From contig MU056550.1 of NCBI GenBank assembly GCA_013239625.1, forward strand, positions 1,039,720 to 1,103,719: a stretch of 64,000 nucleotides of DNA. Direction: 5' to 3'. A program made the translations under genes and the position numbers. Source of the stretch: Lama guanicoe. Its lineage: Eukaryota. Below are positions 5,760 to 59,625 of the stretch, piece by piece. Below the pieces are notes generated by a model, which was not told the DNA's origin, did not search any database, and saw only the letters and a list, made by a program, of their open reading frames with translations. The first letter of the stretch is position 1. Every line of letters begins with the position of its first letter.

Positions 5760-7739
5760 AAGTTACCTTTGTTCTAAATGAATAAATGAAGATGCATCAT
5801 CAAAAAATGTTTTTTCAAAAAACTTACAAAATAAGGAATTAAAAAGAATGAAAAGAAAATTATTATATTTCATCCTGTCGGTATACACACAAATCAATTC
5901 TTTACTACTGTACCTCTGTGAAAAACAAACATGTCAAAAAAGGAAAAGGAAACAATGTCAATGTAAAAGACAACTGTTTCTAAAATGGGATAAAAGAAAG
6001 ATTAAAGCCAAAAACTAAAATTTATCTTTACTGTCAGTTTGACTCAAAAGATCGTTGTTTTTTTTTTTTTTAAATCAGCCAGGCTAGGAAAATCAAGTGT
6101 CCTTAAAGCTAAAGTGTTAGGAAGTGATCTATATTAAGTTCAGCCAAAGAAAAAAATTAAATCCCCAAGATGAGCTTCTGAGAAGACACTGACACAAAGC
6201 TCTCAAATATACCAAATTCTCTCTCCTTCTGTGAACAATAGTTGTGGGTGCTCATTTACTACACTAATTGAAAATAAATACTGCAATTTATGTAAACTAA
6301 ATCTCACCCTGGAATCACAGGAATTGAAAAATCAGGAATAAACCTGTACTAAGAGTATACGATTTCCTAAAGCTAATTTTTCCTAGCCTCTTTCAAGTGC
6401 TTAGTCACTTCTGCCTATTTACAAAGAAGACCATTTCACATCTAGAAAGAGGCAGGGAATTTTTATTCCAGACTGTCATGTCACCTGAGCTGCCCTAGAC
6501 AGTTTGTTTCCATGCAACTCGAGAGAAGGCAGCAGCCAACTAAGCATACCTACCACTCCAGATCAGAACCAGGAGCCACAGGGGCTCCTCTCTATTCTGC
6601 CTCTGTCTGCAATAACAAAGAGGCGTTTGTGGAAAAGCAAAGTTTTCTTCCCTGACACCAAACACAGAAGGTGAGAATTAAAATGTAGCCTGAAAACATT
6701 CTCTCCCGTTTCCTCTAACAGCACACCACAAATGCCTCCCTTCTCTTCTACTGAAACAGAAACAGCAAGCAGATTCTTACACAACTCCAGATGTGGGTAC
6801 TAGACCTTTCTCCTTAGGCAACTAACAAAACCTATAACTAGAGCCTAAGAGGCTTTGGAGCACACTTCCAAGCTAGCAGCTGGTTTTAAAATCTGATAAC
6901 ATTGTTTCAGGTTCCCCAAAAGCAAGAAAGAAGAGTAAGGTTTTCATGAAAGATCGTCTTAAGAGACAACCCTAGGCCAAGGCAAGTTTTTAAGCACCTA
7001 GTATGTGCTCAGCACCAAATCCCAACATTCCACTCCACTTAAAAGATGCTAAGCTGATTACAGAATCACACCTGAAAGAACTCTCTCTCTCTCAGATACA
7101 GTAGTGCCTTCCCAAAGACCAAGCACATTCTTTCCAAACATAACTCCAAGTAGTAAAACCTGGAATCACCTGGTCAATCTCTGAAGCAGAGCTTAGTCCA
7201 CTTCCCAGAAGGTCATGGACTCTTGACAACCAACTTGAACTATTCAGGATGGAGCTCTTTCCCCTCTCAAGAATGTAAGTGCTATAAAAGCCATTGTTTC
7301 CTCGACTTCAGTATCCTCAAACATCATTCTCATTCTTCCCAAATATCCCCTTAATAACACCACTTTACATACATATGTGTTCCCGTCTCTACAGATAAAA
7401 TATAAAGGCACGCATTAACCTCTTTTCATGAGGATAGTGACGTTCAAAAAGGCCAAGAAATTCGAATAGGCCTGTTAGTGAAGGCTCGAGGTCCTTTAGG
7501 CGCCCAGGCCTCAACACTTACCAGTAAGCCACACTGCCTTTCAAGGAACGCTACTAAATCCAGTTACTGATCCCAACTAGTTTTATGTCACAAAACTGGG
7601 TGCAAAGCGTTCAGTGACATGGATGGGGGGGCAGGGAGGGGTGGAAAGGGGACACCACCATTACCTGAGCAATTTTTTTCTCTCACTAATAATATATACA
7701 TGTTCCCGATTTCCATCTTCCCCACGGGCAGAACCCACG

Positions 7740-8540
7740 TGCCGGTTCCACCGCTACCCACAGCAGCTCCCTCTCCAAGCTCCCCAGCTTCTGCCGGGTC
7801 CCCAGTAGCCTCCCACGCTCCCTCCCCCAGACCAGCCCTGCCGCCGGCGCCTACCGCCCCCTCCCCAGCGACGGCCGCCCAGGCCCCCGCGCCGCCCTCT
7901 CAAGCAGCCGGCTCCCGAACGGGCGCGCTCCCGCCTCCGCCCGAAGGGGTCACCCCCGGGGCCTGCGCGCGCCCTTCCCGCCGCCCGGAGGTTCCCCCCA
8001 CGACGCCGGCGCCGGCGCCTGGCAGGCCGCGCCCGCCGCGCCTGCCATGGTGGGCGCCTCACCGTCAGGCTGAGGAGCCGGGCCCGGCTGCGCCATGGCC
8101 AGGCGGCCGGCCTCGGGGAGCGGGGATGGGAGGGGAAACGGCGTCCTGGGCTCTCGCCGGCTCAGCTGGCGGAGCAGGCGTCGACCGAGCCGCCGCCGCC
8201 GCCGCCCAGGGAGGAACCGCTAAGGCTGGNNNNNNNNNNNNNNNNNNNNNNNNNNNNNNNNNNNNNNNNNNNNNNNNNNNNNNNNNNNNNNNNNNNNNNN
8301 NNNNNNNNNNNNNNNNNNNNNNNNNNNNNNNNNNNNNNNNNNNNNNNNNNNNNNNNNNNNNGGAGGGGCGGGGCTTCGCGAGGGGAGGGGGAGCGCGGCG
8401 CGGGGGGAGGCTGGAGGAGGAGCGGAGCCCGCGGCGGCGAGCAAGGCGGGTGGGATGGAGGGGGGAGGGGCGAGGAGGCGAGCCCGGGCGAGAAGGGCCA
8501 GGACGCCGAGAGGAGCCACTCGCGGTCCTCCGCCCTAGGA
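7740..8540. promoter_or_regulatory. CpG island / RABEP1 promoter and 5'UTR
   Basis: Very GC- and CpG-rich, with a GC box ggggcggggc at ~8365, G-runs and (gcc)n. It surrounds RABEP1 exon 1 and is interrupted by the N gap at 8230-8361. Confidence 0.9.
8063..8096 (-). CDS. RABEP1: RABEP1 (Rabaptin-5) coding part of exon 1; the rest of the gene lies beyond the window start
   Basis: gccATGG Kozak context, ATG GCG CAG CCG GGC CCG GCT CCT CAG CCT GAC G|gtgagg = MAQPGPAPQPD. This matches the recalled human N-terminus MAQPGPASQPD. The head-to-head arrangement with SCIMP matches human 17p13. Confidence 0.92.
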
Positions 8541-8579
8541 CAGAGGCAAAGAAAGAGTAATAATAAAAAGAGGGCGAGA

Positions 8580-8760
8580 CAGGAGGGTTGATGGTGAAGT
8601 GAGTGCAAATCCAGCTCTGCCTCTTCTAGCTATGTGACCTTGGGCGAGTCACTTAACCTCTTTGAACCTTACAGCCTTCGTCAGTATAATGGCTAAGAGA
8701 AGTTTAAATGAAGTAAAATGTGTGGAACTGTTTCTGGCGTACTTTCCATTACGCACCTGT
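8580..8760 (+). mobile_element. MIR SINE
   Basis: gcaaatccagctctgcctcttctagctatgtgaccttgggcgagtcacttaacctct. Confidence 0.75.
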
Positions 8761-47342: not shown

Positions 47343-49320
47343 TGGTTCACCAGAGATAAATAAGGTGAAATTCCGATTTAGTTTGTTGAACAAAGAGGCT
47401 GCCCTTATATAAGTGGCATCGTCTTAAGTCCAGTGCCCTGTGACCTCATGGGGCCCTGCAAAACCAGATTTCACAGGCCTCGACTGAGAGCCAAGTTTCC
47501 ATTCTCCATGGTTACCCTTTTTCTATTTGTTCTTCTGCCTCTCTTGCTTTCTTTTGTGCACCCTGAAAATGTGATCTACAACAAAACTTCTGCCAAATGC
47601 ATGCCTTGGGGGTGAGACACCCCCAGTAGCTGACACTTCACTCTCTCAAGAGTAAATCCTCAGACAACTACCAACATCAATAAATGACAAAAACAGAGCA
47701 TTAAGCAAAAAAGTAAGCAGCAGGGTTACGTGCATGGAAGAATACTAGTGACATATGATTGGTTTTGCCACATCTAACTTTACGAATATCCAAAGAACAT
47801 TCTACTGACCAAGCCAAACCTTCACAGAAGAAATGAAGCTTGGAACTGAAACTCCAAATCATAATATAACAGCTTAATAAATAAAGACACTATGCCAGTA
47901 ATACAAACACATGTTTAAGTCATAAGCCAAGTCAGAAGGTCTTTGTAGTAATAATGGCTTCAGCAGCATCCTTCGTTGGCCCCTGTATCTCAGCCTCCTG
48001 CCTCGGTCCCTGCTGATGTCGTTAATATTGATAGAAGCATGAATCAGAAATGGTATCCTATGATCACGAGTGAGTGAGTTTCCACGGGCTAAGTGGTGAA
48101 ACTCATATAATTCTCATATAACCAGGATATGTCAAGTTATCTCCCAGACTTCAAGGATCATTTTTACTTTAATATCCAAGTGAACTAGCAAAGTGCCCAT
48201 TCCACAGATAAGGGGAGCCCAGCCGCCGCGCCCCCCACCCCCCACCAAGATCTCCCTGAATATTTCTCTGGCGGCTCCTCCTCTGTTCATACAAGCTTTG
48301 GTCGTGCAATTTTAGTGGAATTTGATGGGAACAGATTAGAACACAGCATTACACAGGCAACAGTTGAAGACTGAATATTAGACATAATTTTCCCACAAAT
48401 GCATTGGTCATTTTCCACTACGGGGACTATCTAATGATGCTCCAACTTTATGTGCTCTCTCTTTTTTTTTTTTCCCTCTCTCTTTCTTCCCTCAGCTTTA
48501 TTGAGATACAATTGACATTACTGAGATACATTGTGTAAGTTAAAGGTGTACTATGTGTTGATTTGATACACTTGCATGTTGTAGAATGATTACCCCCAAA
48601 GTGGTACCTAACATCTCCATCACAAAACTACCACTTCTTTCTTATGGGGAGAACATTTAAGATCTACCCTCTTCTTGACCTCTCCCTCTGCTGTTACCCT
48701 CTCCCCAGACTCTCCTCCTCTCTGGTCAGCCAGCCTTCTACACCCAAATTCCTGTCCCTTCTCTTGTGCAGACTAGCTCAGTTTGCTTTTGCATCTTCAC
48801 CTTCTCCCCTCTGACCACACCTCACTCAAAGAGATCCATCAAGGTATTTTCCTAACCCCTACCTCAAAAAAAAAAAAAAGAACCTCTCAAAATTCTATCT
48901 CCCCTGTTATGAATTCAGTCTATGTTGCCCCTTTGATATAAAAACAACTGCAATCAGTTATTGCTTTAAATGGCATTTCCTCCTCCTGTTGCATGTTTGA
49001 CAGTATAAGAAAGAGGCGTGATTATGTCTACTGGGTCTAGAGGAACTAATAAGTACGTCTTACCTCTAATCTTTGTAAATCCCCTGTGAAGTATAGACAT
49101 TATCATGCCCATGTTGCAGATGAGAACACTGAGGCTTACAGAAGGTTAAGTCACTTTCCTGAGGTCTCCCAGCTGCTAATCAGCAGAGTTTGACTGTGAA
49201 CCAGTGCCTGTCTGATCCCTAAGCCAATGTAGCCGCACATCATGGTAGATACGGCCCCCACCGCCCCAGCAAGCCTTTCACTCATACGCCTTCCTCTCTC
49301 CCCATTCTTTTCAGGATCCC

Positions 49321-49438
49321 ATGGAGATGGATTGGTGGAGGAACAATTTCTGGATCATCCTGGCTGTGGCCATTGTCGTTGTCTCCATGGGCCTGGGCAT
49401 CATCATGTTCTGTGTCTGTAGGAGTCTGTTTAGAAAAG
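49321..49438 (+). CDS. SCIMP: SCIMP exon 2 coding part (exon starts 49315): short ectodomain, TM helix, palmitoylation CxC motif
   Basis: Polypyrimidine tract and tcag|GATCCC ATG, then MEMDWWRNNFWIILAVAIVVVSMGLGIIMFCVCRSLFRK-G|gtaatt. Matches recalled human MSWWRNNFWIILAVAIIVVSVGLGLILYCVC. Confidence 0.96.
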
Positions 49439-51073: not shown

Positions 51074-51134
51074 GCAAGAAATGGGAAATTGTCAAGCCCT
51101 TGAAACAGAAGCAGAGAGATGAAGAGATGTACGA
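51074..51134 (+). CDS. SCIMP: SCIMP exon 3
   Basis: ttgcttccctag|GC AAG AAA TGG...ATG TAC GA|gtaagt = GKKWEIVKPLKQKQRDEEMYE. Phases 1 and 2 are consistent with the neighbouring exons. Confidence 0.95.
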
Positions 51135-52814: not shown

Positions 52815-52888
52815 GAATGTTACCGATCAATTCTCAGTTCAATTACCCCCTCTGCCACCCCGGGGTAAGCTTTCTCCAAAAGATGCTC
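52815..52888 (+). CDS. SCIMP: SCIMP exon 4 (completes YENV; proline-rich SH3 ligand)
   Basis: tcctctctctccag|G AAT GTT...GAT GCT C|gtgagt = ENVTDQFSVQLPPLPPRGKLSPKDA. Confidence 0.95.
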
Positions 52889-54060: not shown

Positions 54061-54692
54061 GCAGGAAATGAAATAGTGATCATTTTTCAGGATCTCTTAG
54101 GAACAGGTGAGAGTGTGGTGAGGCAGTTCCAGTCTCCATCAAAGGTGGAGCTGAGCTGTTTCATTGTCGTTTTCCTAATATGTTCGCCCATTTGCTAGGC
54201 ACCCATCCTCCACTAATCCCACTTTTTGAAAACACCACTGCCTCTACCTTAGCAAAGAGATGACAGACATGAGCAATTATGGATAGTTCTGGAAAGCAGT
54301 ATACGTCATTGTGAGGGATTATCCCAAAAGGAACTATGGCTTGTATCACTTCCTTATGAGAATTAGGATCTGTAGATACAACACCACTCATTTGGCTACT
54401 AGCTCTGATCAGTTTCTTGTCTACACTTCTGTTTCATGGTTCTCACTGCAGTGCAGTCTCAGACAGAAGGACATGGGAGTCAAGACATCTGACCCATATT
54501 TGCCACTGACTCACTTGGGTGGGCCTGAGACTGTATCATGGCCAGGTCTCAGTTTCCTCTGTAAAATGGGGATCTGGTCCACCAAGAAGTGGGAGGATCA
54601 TCAAAACCCATGAAAATGATGCAGAACCACTTGGTCAAAAATATACAAACATACAATAGCTTTGCATCTAATACTTTTTGTGTGTATTCTAG

Positions 54693-54901
54693 CCCCACAG
54701 GAAACCCCAAGTCAGCCACCAGCTGCCTACTCATCGGTAAAAAAAGTTAGAAATAAGAAGACAGTTGCTGTCCCAAGTTATATTGAGCCTGAAGCTGACT
54801 ACGATGACATTGATATCCCTGCAAATACGGAAAACCATCATCGTGAAAAAAACGTTACTTCTTTTTGGCAAGCGGAAGAGGGTTCACACAGCTTATTTTA
54901 A
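54693..54901 (+). CDS. SCIMP: SCIMP exon 5 (terminal coding exon; YSSV and YDDI motifs)
   Basis: tgtgtattctag|CC CCA CAG...TTT TAA = [68 protein letters not shown]. Spliced CDS is 118+61+74+209 = 462 nt = 153 aa. Confidence 0.96.
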
Positions 54902-56349
54902 AACAGTCAAGAATGGTTGAACTTCAGTAGGTACCCAGGTCCCGAAAGCCAGTGGTCCTGTTATGAAGCTCTGTAAGATAAGCACTTCCTGAATCTTAGA
55001 AGAAGGGGCAGCAATCCTGACTCAGCCCTGAGAATGGAGAGGAGTCAGGCCTTGAACTTCTGCTGAGGGAGGCTCCAGGCGGAGGACCACTGGCTTCCAA
55101 GGCTCCTACCTGTGAGAAACTACTCAGTTCCTGGCACTTGTCCCCCTTTTCCCTCCCCTGTTTGTGTGGCTCTAAATGATCTCAAATCTTGGCGTTTGAC
55201 TGTGCAGAGCCTCCCAGTCTCCCATCCCCAGCACAGCCCCCACCAAGCACATGTCTTATTCCCACGCACCCCATCCACCTCACATGTTGAGAGGCTGTGG
55301 GTGGCGGTTACAGCTGAGCACTCTTTTGCGCAAGTCACACGTCACGCCTTGTGCGTTGGTCAAGGGCAGGGGAGGACTTTTCGTTCTTGCAAATCCTCCC
55401 CACCTACACAACCCCCGAACCCCCAGAGCCTCTCTGTGACCTTGGCAAGACTGACCACAGCGATCCAAGTTCTCACCCAGGGCTCCTCCTGGGCTTCCCG
55501 CTGCACCAAACAATCAACACAGGACAGAAGTCACCTTCTGGACCAAAGGACAGAAGTTACACATGGAGCTGTCATTTTGCAATACATGTATTGGCGGAGC
55601 TACAGGAAAAAGGTTTCCCTGGGAAGAATCATGGGAACAGGAAAGAAAGGGGAGATTAAATGGCAGATTCAAGATGAGAGTTCTGGGGACTTAATACCCT
55701 CCACCATAATTTTCATTATTGCTTCCTCCCTTGTGTAGAGTTCCAGGCAAACAGTGTCATGCCCCTCCCTGCCTGACTCCTGTCCCTGAGCTGCTGGGAG
55801 GCAGAAGCTCCAGTGCGATGTGCTGCAGCTAATGAGATGCCCGGCGAGTGGGCTGCTGTTCTGTCAAACAAGTACCCTAGTGGGGTCCCGAGGCCCGAGT
55901 CAGCTTTGTAGGCCCCTGAACCTCATCAGTTCCTTCAAGTTCATCTGATGGAGCCTGAGGACTTGACACTTTCCCAAGCAGACTCACAGGATGCTGAATT
56001 CTAAGCAGACCCTGGGAAATGCAGCGAACAGGCATGCAGGGAGAGCGCCATGAGCTGTGCAAAAGGCCCAGGAGCGTTCCTTGGACTGAGCTGCTGGACC
56101 CGTGGGGACATGAGCACCCTCCCAGGTTCTCTCTTCCTAGACTCCATGGAGACTTCCAGTTTCTCATAGTACCTCCTTATTTTAGGCCAGTGATTCTTTA
56201 CCTGTGGCCTTATGGACCTCTGGTACTCCACTATCCAAAGAGAGGACTTTTCCTAAATTACAGAGAGAGAGAAAGAAAGAAAAAGGCTAAAGGATGAAAT
56301 GTTTTACGTGCATGCTTTCCTCTTACAAATTCTCTGTAAACCATCCACA

Positions 56350-57760
56350 TCTATAGCAAAAGATGAAAGCACATACAATCAATGTTAACTCCTCCTTGGT
56401 TTCTGGGACACCATCTTCTGGTCCTCCTCCTGCCTTTCTAGCCTGTATCGGTCTCATTTGTGAGCTTGCATCTCTTGGAAACATCTCTTCAATGGTAGTC
56501 TTTCTCAGGGTCCTCATCTCGCTCCTAACACTCATGAGTGACCTCATCAATGCCCACGGGCTCAGTACCCCTCTTTTCTGATGACTCCCAATTGCAGGCT
56601 CCAGCTGAACTCTCTCTCCCCAGTTCCAGACCATGTTGCCCCAGGACATCGCCATATGCCTCTCCCACAGGCCCCTCAAGTTCAACATACACAGAGGGAA
56701 TTAATTACCCAACTCCACTTCCAAACTTCTTGTGCTCTGCTGTCTTCTTAGTTGGTGAACTCAGAAATCAGCATGGGTCTGGAGTCCTTTCCAGTGTTCC
56801 CCACCTCCTGTTGATTGTGCCTCTCAAGTAGCTCTCTGATCAGCCCACATTTCTCATTGGCTGTTCAGTTTGTGCCTCTCAAGTAGCTCTCTGATCAGCC
56901 CACATTTCTCATTGGCTGTTCAGTTCCTAGGTCCTTGCCAGCACTTGGCAAGAGAACACCAGCAGCCTCCCAGTTGGCCTCCTACCTCTGGTGTCTCAGC
57001 CTGCAATCCCCCTTCTGCATCGCAGCCAGTGACCTTGTAAAGTGAACATCTGACCGCTTCATCCCCTTGCTTAAATCTCTTTACCCATTAGCATCAGAAA
57101 AAGCCCAAACTCCTTAATCTGGGTTACCAGATTTGTCAGGATCTGGTCAGCAGTTATCTCTTACCAATCTCCTTCCCCACTGCCTTGTAACTGTACTCCC
57201 CCAGAGTTTTGCTCCAGCCATTTCAAATGACTTTGCCCATGGCCTCTCTTGCCCCTATGACTATGCACAGTCCTGCCCCCACGGTCTGGAACATTCTTCC
57301 CCACCTTTTGATCCTTCCCATCTCTGCTTAAATCCTTGCCTCACCACTCCAAATTCGGGTCCGGTGCCCTCATAGAGGCTCCCCTCTCATAGCATTAGCA
57401 TGCTGTAATTACCTGCTCACCTGTCTTTCTTCCCCACTAGACTGAAAGCAACACGAGGGCGGAGACTGTCTTTCCCCCACTGCTTTCTCTGTTCCTAGCA
57501 CAGTGCCCTGGACCATTGTAGATGCTCAGTAAATATGCTGAATAAACGATCAATTGAATGAGTGAATGAATGACTCCTGGACTTGGCCCTGGAGAAACAC
57601 TTCTCCTTCTGCATTGTAACTGCCTGGTTACTTTTCCATCCTCCTTCCTGATCTGGGGGCTCCTTTTCAGTGGAAGCTCTCTGGCTAACTGCTATATTCC
57701 TAGTGTCCAGCTCAAACCCTGGCACATAGTAGGCACCTGATAAATATTTACTGAATGTTG
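56350..57760 (+). mobile_element. L2 LINE fragments
   Basis: gtgacctcatcaatgcccacgg, gatgactcccaa, tccccactagactgaaagc, and the L2 3' end tcagtaaatatgctgaataaacgatcaattgaatgagtgaatgaatg. Confidence 0.75.
56815..56924. repeat. Perfect 55-bp tandem duplication
   Basis: ttgtgcctctcaagtagctctctgatcagcccacatttctcattggctgttcagt occurs twice in tandem. Confidence 0.95.
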
Positions 57761-57926
57761 GACATTTATGGAAAAATCTACCAGTCTGACAAATCATTTT
57801 CCTCTGGGTGTGTGTAACTTGGTTGAAATTTTATACTGGGTACCTGTAATAAAACCGCATTTTCTGCCAACAAAATTTTTTCCAGTTTGGATGATAGAAT
57901 TAAATATATTAAGATTTCACAGGACC

Positions 57927-58090
57927 TTTTTGTGTATTCTAGCTCCTCAGGAAACCCCAAGTCACCCACTAGCTTCATGCTCATGGATAAATTTAGAAAT
58001 AAAACACTTCCCCACCTGAGCTATTTGGAGCATGAAGATGAAATGTTAAAAACCTTACAAATATGGAAAACCATCATTTTGAAGCAACTC
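57927..58090 (+). pseudogene. Degenerate duplicate of SCIMP exon 5 (possible alternative terminal exon; ORF 57943-58019)
   Basis: tgtgtattctagctcctcaggaaaccccaagtcacccactagct versus exon 5 tgtgtattctagccccacaggaaaccccaagtcagccaccagct. The copies also share ttagaaataa and ggaaaaccatcat further on. Confidence 0.85.
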
Positions 58091-59625
58091 CTGCTCCACC
58101 ACCTTAACTGATTTGAGAACTGTTGGTCAGCAGTTATCTCTTTACGACCATGCCACGAATCAGGGGGTGATGCACCCAAAGCCAGGACGGCCACAGGCCC
58201 TGAACTTTAGGCCTGAGATCAAAATGGAGCCTCCTTGCTCTCACCCTGCGGGCCGGCAGACCTGGGTCTGCAGGGCCAGCTCCACCTCACCCGCTCACCC
58301 ACTTCCTGGGAAGAAGAAATGGAGGGGTACTGGGTCAGCAATGGGGGTTGGAGCCATGTCTCCCTTTTGAGATAAAATAACTCCACCTGTATTCACAGCA
58401 AATGCCAGATTCAATTCAGTCACATTAGTTCCTCCCCTCTCCTGCTCATGGGGAGAGAAAGGGACGCGCCTCTGTGGAAACTGAGGATGACTCCCTCCTG
58501 ACTCAGGATGACCTTTTCCCGACTGTGCTCTGTGGCCAAGGAGCAGGGGTCAGAGCAGTGTCCTGGGGGTCAGCCCAGCTCTGCCTCCCTCATGGGTGTT
58601 CTTCACCCCCCACTCCAGTATGTACTCCACTCTTTCCAGCAAAAGCCCCAGATTTTCCTGTTGGATCTGCTTCTTTCTCTTGTCAGTTGGTCCAAATTCT
58701 GTACAGCCTCATCCTCAACTCAGGCTGGAGCATGTGACCCAGCCTGGCCAATCGGAGATTTCCATTCCCTTGGCCCCAGTGACTGATTGGTTGATGCTCT
58801 GAGAATCAAGGCAGGAGTCCTCTCCCACTGGCTCTGAAGTTGAGGGGATATAAATTCTCAAGGTAGAACCTGTCACAGAGGATGTGGAGCTGAGCTATGA
58901 AGACAGTCCAGATCCTACTGGCATTGTTTGAGCTTCTGGAAACAGCCATGCTTGAAACAGGCATAATCTCTGGGTTTTTTAGTTCTTTGAGCCAATATTC
59001 TTTAAAAGCCTTCAACTCTGCCCCTTAAGGCTTATCCCCACCATCACTGCCTATTTTCAGTCTTGTCATCTTTCATCTGTCTTAATGCAAACGCCTCCTG
59101 ACTGTTCTCTCCTTCTCCAATACATCTCCCATGTACTGTCAGAGTGAACTTTCTAAGATGCAAACCTGATTAGATCACGGCCCTGCTTAAAATCCTTCAG
59201 TGGGACCCCTGTGCCTACAAAGATAAAATCCACACTCCTCAGCACAGAAGGCAAGGCCCTGATAACCTGGTCTCCACAGGCCTTGTTTCAGCATCTCCTG
59301 TCCTCCCCTCATGCATCCTGGCCACAGGAAACCGCTTGCAGCACCCACCCACCACCAAGCATCAAAATGGTGCTAAGGTTTTGTACATTCTCTTCCTTCT
59401 GCTGGGAACACCTTCCTTCCTCCTCCACCTGATAAACCACGACTCACCCCTCAGCACCCAGCTGGAGTGGCGCTTTCTCTGCGAGGGCTTTCCTCGCCGG
59501 GTCAGCAGCAGCCCCACCTCAGCACTCCTCTGAATACTTATCATGGTGCATAATTAGCCCCATCTCGGGGTTACACAGCTCTTTCCCATTAGACACTGGG
59601 TTCCTTGAGGGCTAGGATTATGTTG

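What the first reader, a model, noticed from the sequence alone, without database searches (positions are those of the whole stretch)
57927..58090. Duplicated SCIMP last exon with an intact in-phase acceptor: a possible tyrosine-stripped decoy isoform
Seen: 3.25 kb downstream of exon 5 is a diverged copy with the same acceptor (tgtgtattctag|) and the same phase. Splicing exon 4 to 57943 gives ...DAP-PQETPSHPLASCSWINLEIKHFPT* (109 aa, stop ends 58019). Y97 of YSSV becomes Cys (TAC>TGC), and a frameshift removes Y114 and the Y121 YDDI motif. Known: SCIMP binds Grb2 via YENV, Lyn SH3 via the proline-rich motif, Csk via the YSxV tyrosine (also implicated in TLR binding in mouse), and SLP65/76 via YDDV. 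Inference: this isoform would keep the membrane anchor, Grb2 and Lyn sites but lose the Csk and SLP65 sites, and as a last exon it would escape NMD. Similarity looks highest at the acceptor and first ~14 codons, which hints at selection on splicing.
Basis: partly seen in the sequence, partly recalled or inferred. Interest (0 to 1): 0.72.

Follow-up and report, generated by a model that had tools for sequence, protein, structure and literature searches.

The report
Old decayed copy of SCIMP exon
A camelid carries a decayed partial copy of the last exon of the immune adaptor gene SCIMP 3.25 kb behind the real one; its splice site is intact and would give a protein lacking its two main signalling tyrosines, but the copy is likely an old, unselected relic that is rarely if ever used.

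Summary
In detail: 57927-58083 is a single 72.5%-identical copy of the start of SCIMP exon 5 with an intact in-phase acceptor. Splicing exon 4 to 57943 would give 109 aa that keep only Y59. The copy is old: at 13 diagnostic codons it sides with non-artiodactyl mammals 8 times, never with camelids. The claimed selection signal is weak: the 5'-to-3' similarity gradient is not significant (p 0.10-0.52) and vanishes against an outgroup-based reference. Five of six changed early codons alter the amino acid. No junction was seen, and none of 214 fetched SCIMP proteins, including all 7 camelid ones, ends in the copy's tail. Two AATAAA signals lie upstream. Against this reading: the last 12 intron bases are identical (P about 0.05, post hoc). 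The copy has its own AATAAA. Mustelid and white-rhino models stop just inside an exon-5-like start, and humans have a curated tyrosine-less isoform. Verdict: likely a relic pseudoexon (0.75); a functional decoy is untested (0.12).

The parts
57920..57942 (+). Copied intron-4 end: pyrimidine tract and acceptor AG (57941-57942)
   Evidence: 15 of 16 bases identical to the native acceptor, last 12 identical. The translated intron matches donkey and peccary read-through models from about -22. An extra AG lies at -22.
57943..58090 (+). Decayed copy of the first ~50 codons of SCIMP exon 5; three or four short deletions (14 nt in all), the first shifting the frame
57943..58019 (+). Frame that would be read after exon 4: 24 whole codons PQETPSHPLASCSWINLEIKHFPT, then TGA (58017-58019)
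57998..58003 (+). AATAAA inside the copy, 14 nt before its stop; a possible poly(A) signal for the copy as last exon (use not shown)
   Evidence: sequence
57541..57546 (+). First AATAAA after the exon-5 stop; likely main poly(A) signal (inferred), 400 nt upstream of the copy; a second lies at 57848
54693..54901 (+). Native exon 5, coding part (Y97, Y114, Y121; stop 54899-54901)
   Evidence: Pfam PF15050, E 1.4e-19
52815..52888 (+). Exon 4 (end of YENV, proline-rich motif); donor after 52888, second donor after 52864 (isoform X2), both phase 1
51074..51134 (+). Exon 3
49315..49438 (+). Exon 2 (ATG 49321, transmembrane segment)
58086..58142 (+). Segment directly after the copy that resembles 57108-57162 (30 of 39 identical, E 0.002); possibly part of the same duplication event

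Best explanation
The segment is a short same-strand copy of the end of SCIMP intron 4 and the first ~50 codons of exon 5, likely made by a DNA-level duplication before the artiodactyl radiation and likely decaying without selection since. Shown: it contains intron sequence, has no detectable flanking homology, and carries substitutions and frameshifting deletions along its length. Inferred: SCIMP transcripts splice exon 4 to the nearer, near-identical native acceptor and mostly end at or before AATAAA 57541, so the copy is usually neither transcribed into the mRNA nor chosen. Its acceptor survives because only about one base in five has changed. Occasional read-through transcripts may splice to it and give a trace 109-aa form without selected function.
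For: Age: 8 of 13 codons where camelids differ from the majority of 22 non-artiodactyl mammals side with the outgroup, 0 with camelids, 5 tie. Two of the 8 oppose states held by 8 of 8 and 7 of 8 other artiodactyls (copy bases assigned by hand-anchored blocks). Even decay: 36/44 against 78/97 with an outgroup-based reference, p 1.0, and the longest identical stretch in that alignment lies beyond the proposed stop. Of 6 changed codons among the first 14, 5 change the amino acid. Between species the copy differs at 6 of 151 letters plus one insertion, the nearby flank at 14 of 272, p 0.64 (two different runs, one of depth 2). All 7 members of the camelid cluster (isoforms X1/X2 of four species, plus partial models) end in the exon-5 tail, and 0 of 214 fetched proteins carry the copy's tail. 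Simulated neutral decay at the observed level leaves a tyrosine-free tail in 57% of runs, and an intact AG is expected about two times in three. AATAAA at 57541 and 57848 lie upstream. Flank alignments of 60-150 nt score like shuffles.
Against: The last 12 intron bases are all identical (P 0.046 at the exon's rate; 15 of 16, P 0.093; Fisher 0.20; windows chosen after looking). A tail both 24 aa or longer and free of tyrosine arose in only 6% of simulations. The copy has its own AATAAA just before its stop. RefSeq models of three Mustela species (two sequences) end ...EHTFP and a mink entry ...EHTSP, exactly where exon 5 reads FPQETP; a white-rhino model ends APQETPRQQTAT where the black rhino has APQETPSKPPATY. 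These may be splices to orthologous copies. One 151-letter contig of depth 2 from an RNA library lies on 57956-58105, though it does not span the acceptor. One of six flank tests (400 nt upstream, global) was reached by only 13 of 500 shuffles. No raw camelid immune-cell reads were laid, so rare use is untested.
Confidence: 0.75

Rival explanations
1. The copy is an old alternative last exon kept for its splice and poly(A) signals. When transcription passes the upstream poly(A) signals and exon 5 is skipped, it gives a membrane-anchored SCIMP that binds Lyn and Grb2 but not Csk, SLP65/76, Syk or TLR4, damping TLR and MHC-II signalling. Only the truncation matters, so the tail drifts.
For: Intact acceptor, 12 of 12; own AATAAA. 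Mustelid and white-rhino models stop inside an exon-5-like start. A curated human isoform (NP_001306119.1) and ape and monkey models have the same design with an unrelated last exon. The Y96F mouse mutant still binds Lyn and lowered IL-12p40 modestly (PMC5253658, passages); Y96 and Y120 dock Syk (PMC9052152, passages).
Against: No junction seen; no camelid isoform among 7 of 7 cluster members; the acceptor excess is marginal and post hoc. The mustelid ending could come from an acceptor 8 nt upstream of exon 5, and the rhino model from a poor assembly; neither DNA could be fetched. Of 196 proteins with the exon-4 motif, 177 keep YDD[VI], and the 19 others end in at least five unrelated ways, as splicing noise or model errors would.
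Confidence: 0.12
2. The copy is spliced at a measurable level in some lineages or tissues (as the mustelid models may show) but the product has no selected role; it is tolerated leakiness of an old duplicate.
For: Acceptor nearly identical to the native one; alternative-isoform models in mustelids. Unannotated intronic exon copies in human show on average some read and junction support (PMC9013439, parts 1-3 of 4 read), mainly at 80% identity or more.
Against: Absent from camelid annotation; lies behind two AATAAA.
Confidence: 0.1
3. The copy was once a functional duplicate last exon, conserved for a time, and lost function later; this would explain why homology is seen only from the pyrimidine tract to codon ~50 and not in the flanks.
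For: Homology starts about 22 nt before the acceptor, just where splice signals start; the native intron still matches donkey and peccary further upstream, the copy does not clearly.
Against: The copy lacks the last ~15 codons; the rhino model, if orthologous, already has a stop at the Y97 codon; a short duplication explains the same limits.
Confidence: 0.03

Closest known systems
Unannotated tandem exon duplicates near genes (Ivanov and Pervouchine 2022, PMC9013439)
   Same: A same-strand homolog of an annotated exon within or just beyond its gene, unannotated, at 57-100% identity; 4,027 such intronic targets were counted in human.
   Different: This copy is 72.5% identical and frameshifted, and lies behind the likely poly(A) signal; the paper's expression signal was shown for targets of at least 80% identity. 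Its online table could not be seen, so whether human SCIMP is listed is unknown.
Tandem exon duplication-derived C-terminal substitutions such as PRKCB (Martinez Gomez et al. 2021, PMC8373072)
   Same: Duplicated last coding exon, same phase, choice by alternative acceptor and poly(A) site.
   Different: Those events are annotated, keep two homologous open frames, are mostly conserved to fish and are enriched in proteomics; this copy has lost its frame and has no shown expression. SCIMP occurs 0 times in that paper's main text.
Human SCIMP isoform 3 (NP_001306119.1; UniProt isoform 2) and related primate models
   Same: Exons to the proline-rich motif, then another last exon; keeps YENV and PPLPPR, lacks the Csk and SLP65/76 tyrosines.
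   Different: Its tail is unrelated to exon 5 (it looks Alu-derived; recalled, not tested) and it has transcript annotation; no function was found for it in my searches.
Scimp TV1 (PMC9544816)
   Same: A second SCIMP form from one gene with altered TLR output.
   Different: Made by leaky scanning, shortens the N-terminus, keeps the tyrosines, and is shown experimentally.

Membership tests
Functional tandem-duplicated alternative last exon | Homologous to the gene's last coding exon, same strand, nearby | tested here: met
Functional tandem-duplicated alternative last exon | Intact acceptor in the phase of the upstream donor | tested here: met
Functional tandem-duplicated alternative last exon | Homologous reading frame preserved under purifying selection | tested here: not met
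   frameshift after codon 14; 5 of 6 changed early codons non-synonymous; no Pfam SCIMP match for the 24-aa tail
Functional tandem-duplicated alternative last exon | Junction to the upstream exon in RNA | tested here: inconclusive
   Only assembled contigs of 4 of 24 listed runs were laid, on 57770-58460, without exon 4; no loose end at 57943; one depth-2 contig inside the copy. No camelid annotation.
Functional tandem-duplicated alternative last exon | Own poly(A) site that is used | tested here: inconclusive
   AATAAA at 57998 is present; use not testable with contigs
Functional tandem-duplicated alternative last exon | Splice signals conserved across species above the neutral rate | not testable with these tools
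   No other mammal's DNA could be fetched (searches found nothing); the within-genome test is marginal
Pseudoexon / decayed exon duplicate | Disabling changes and even decay along its length | tested here: met
Pseudoexon / decayed exon duplicate | Not included in mature mRNA at a meaningful level | tested here: inconclusive
   0 of 7 camelid and 0 of 214 fetched proteins use it; absence in RNA cannot be shown with contigs
Processed retrocopy | Lacks intron sequence, joins exons, has a poly(A) tail | tested here: not met
   Keeps the intron end; no copy of exons 2-4 in the window or 60 kb of flanks at E 0.01, apart from one 31-nt minus-strand match to the intron flank of exon 3; no A-tail in the sequence

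The most novel reading that the evidence does not exclude
A partial exon-5 duplicate made in an early laurasiatherian has been kept in camelids, mustelids and rhinos as an alternative last exon whose only job is to truncate SCIMP before its Csk/TLR4/Syk and SLP65 tyrosines. Primates reached the same tyrosine-less isoform independently through an unrelated exon. SCIMP would then have a recurrent built-in dominant-negative form set by poly(A) and acceptor choice.
Probability: 0.12. Interest if true: 0.62.

Novelty: new member of a known kind. Interest (0 to 1): 0.24.

Why it matters
If it is a relic, it matters little, except as a trap: gene models can splice into it when exon 5 is missing from an assembly (the white-rhino model may be such a case). 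If the decoy reading holds, it would add a natural brake on TLR and MHC-II signalling in macrophages and B cells and give a reason to study the annotated but uncharacterised human tyrosine-less SCIMP isoform. Two quick look-ups decide most of this: camelid junction counts, and the location of the ferret isoform's last exon.

Tried and rejected
RNA cover: on 57770-58460, runs X1 and X14 had no contig laid (0 of 29 bins) and X5 none on the copy, although these runs hold 0.33-0.35 of the words of 54690-58400. The tool warns that contigs drop rare forms and that a filter leaves some out, so this is not counted as evidence. An estimate from word shares that transcripts reach about 57.3-57.7 kb needs a divergence of 2.8% or less between the species, while 5% was seen at 58189-58460, so it is only a hint. 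Other mammals' DNA: two metagenome scans found nothing. The 31-letter loose end of the X5 contig was not found in the window, in 60 kb of flanks (best 19 of 30) or in the genome at up to 2 mismatches. Retrocopy origin rejected (intron end present). A long tandem duplication was not supported: flanks score like shuffles in 11 of 12 tests. A search for SCIMP proteins under 125 aa gave 3, none with the copy's tail. Literature: six searches listed no paper on a SCIMP exon duplicate or last-exon isoform; SCIMP/C17orf87 was not found in 10 supplementary files of PMC5740500. The original SCIMP paper of 2011 was not held, so human residue assignments from it are recalled only. Earlier scan notes: none near, none by sequence, none on SCIMP by words. 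No fold or complex was predicted; neither bears on whether the exon is used.

Full report
What is there. The window holds SCIMP of a South American camelid. Exon 5 matches Camelus ferus at 97%, and the alpaca RefSeq protein P0027 maps to the exons at 98-99% for exons 2 and 5. Coding exons are 49315-49438, 51074-51134, 52815-52888 and 54693-54901. A self-comparison of the window finds 57927-58083 as a copy of 54677-54847 at 72.5% over 171 columns; the genome search returns only these two places. Six genome-sized runs hold 0.92-0.93 of the words of the region, so the copy is not an assembly error.

Extent and origin. Homology begins about 22 bases before the acceptor. In frame with the exon the copy reads [12 protein letters not shown], like the intron read-through models of donkey (RTYLCFLAPQET) and peccary ([12 protein letters not shown]). 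It ends near codon 50 of 68. Flanks of 60-400 nt score like shuffles in 11 of 12 tests; the exception is the global score of 400 nt upstream, reached by 13 of 500 shuffles. Directly after the copy, 58086-58142 resembles 57108-57162 (30 of 39 identical, E 0.002). Because intron sequence is present and exons 2-4 have no copy, this is a DNA-level event, not a processed retrocopy. A short templated duplication is inferred, not shown.

Age. At the 13 codons (of the first 56) where the camelid residue differs from the majority of 22 non-artiodactyl mammals, the copy is closer to the outgroup residue 8 times, to the camelid residue never, and ties 5 times. Two of the 8 oppose states held by 8 of 8 and 7 of 8 other artiodactyls. 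The copy therefore predates camelids and probably the artiodactyl radiation. Against a reference built from outgroup residues without looking at the copy, it differs at 27 of 141 positions. That is about what neutral decay over that time would give (rate recalled, not tested).

Is there selection on the 5' part? Against the present camelid exon the first 15 codons match at 36 of 44 and the rest at 73 of 97 (p 0.52). Against the outgroup-based reference the rest rises to 78 of 97 (p 1.0), and its longest identical stretch lies past the proposed stop. With the acceptor included the figures are 51 of 60 against 73 of 97 (p 0.16; permutation 0.10), and the longest run (17) is what shuffling gives (mean 16.4). 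Five of six changed early codons alter the residue. What remains is a marginal acceptor signal: 12 of 12 (P 0.046) or 15 of 16 (P 0.093), in windows chosen after looking. Simulated decay leaves a tyrosine-free tail in 57% of runs, a tail of 24 aa or more in 35%, and both in 6%.

Is it used? To be used, transcription must pass AATAAA at 57541 and 57848 and the spliceosome must skip the nearer native acceptor. The copy does carry its own AATAAA at 57998, 14 nt before its stop. All 7 members of the camelid cluster (X1 and X2 of four species) end in the exon-5 tail. None of 214 fetched SCIMP proteins carries the copy's tail; members were listed for 17 clusters only, at most 15 each. Contigs of 4 of 24 listed runs were laid on 57770-58460. 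One 151-letter contig of depth 2 lies at 57956-58105 without spanning the acceptor, which fits DNA, read-through or antisense RNA as well as an exon. One contig of depth 11.7 starts at 58189 with a loose end, so it does not continue into the copy. The junction itself could not be tested with these tools.

What keeps the decoy idea alive. Of 196 proteins with the exon-4 proline motif, 19 lack YDD[VI]. RefSeq alternative isoforms of three Mustela species end ...EHTFP and a mink entry ...EHTSP, where exon 5 reads FPQETP. A copy with a stop at the Gln codon would give this, but so would an acceptor 8 nt upstream of exon 5. The white-rhino model ends APQETPRQQTAT: 4 changes and a stop in 12 codons against the black rhino, which differs at only 5 of the 217 residues before. 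That looks like a model spliced into a diverged copy. Humans have a curated isoform with the same architecture and an unrelated tail (NP_001306119.1). In mouse, Y96 and Y120 dock Syk, Csk and SLP65 (PMC9052152, passages). Y96F cannot bind TLR4 in cells, still binds Lyn and lowered IL-12p40 modestly (PMC5253658, passages). So the predicted effect of such a protein is reasonable. None of these hints could be checked at DNA level, and the truncated models end in many unrelated ways, as noise would.

Comparison with what is known. Unannotated exon copies near their genes are common: 4,027 intronic targets in human (PMC9013439, parts 1-3 of 4 read). Functional duplicated last exons keep both frames and are mostly conserved to fish (PMC8373072, passages); this copy fails the frame test. 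Six literature searches listed nothing on a SCIMP exon duplicate. PMC9544816 (passages) describes only an N-terminal variant. Supplements of PMC5740500 do not name the gene. The online table of PMC9013439 and bioRxiv supplements could not be seen.

Verdict. A real, old, partial exon duplicate; most likely a relic with at most trace splicing (0.75). Measurable but unselected use 0.10, functional decoy 0.12, formerly functional exon 0.03. New member of a known kind; interest 0.24.

Noticed in passing
proteins P0088, P0093-P0097, P0085-P0087 (human, apes, Old World monkeys): A primate SCIMP isoform, curated in human as NP_001306119.1, replaces exon 5 by an unrelated tail (Alu-like by recall) and so lacks the Csk and SLP65/76 tyrosines; no paper on it was listed by my searches.
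   Followed up: partly
proteins P0208, P0210, P0213 (mustelids), P0083 (white rhino): Models that stop 1 or 11 residues into an exon-5-like sequence; possible orthologous copies of the duplicate.
   Followed up: partly
window 58189-58460: A 391-letter contig of depth 11.7 in RNA-like run X5 starts here with a 31-letter loose end. The minus strand reads GT at the break, so it may be an exon of an antisense transcript, but the partner sequence was not found in the window, flanks or genome.
   Followed up: partly
L008:1-1300 and L008:7298-9337 (just right of the window): A CpG island directly beyond the window, followed by a plus-strand open frame of 680 codons with 14 C2H2 fingers; a second zinc-finger frame (13 fingers) lies on the minus strand further on. 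The island could drive antisense transcription over the SCIMP 3' end (not tested).
   Followed up: no
window 56815-56924: Perfect 55-nt tandem duplication (2 copies, 100% identical) in the presumed 3' UTR; very recent or an assembly slip.
   Followed up: no
window 52865-52866: A second donor 24 nt inside exon 4 gives camelid isoform X2 (145 aa), which drops 8 residues after the proline-rich motif.
   Followed up: yes
window 54860-54901: The C-terminal [17 protein letters not shown] tail is kept in many mammals but cut short in whales, carnivores and apes or monkeys in the fetched proteins; it lies outside the Pfam model and I saw no function described.
   Followed up: no
window 7600-8600: G+C-rich stretch with long open frames on both strands, typical of a CpG-island promoter of the neighbouring gene.
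   Followed up: no
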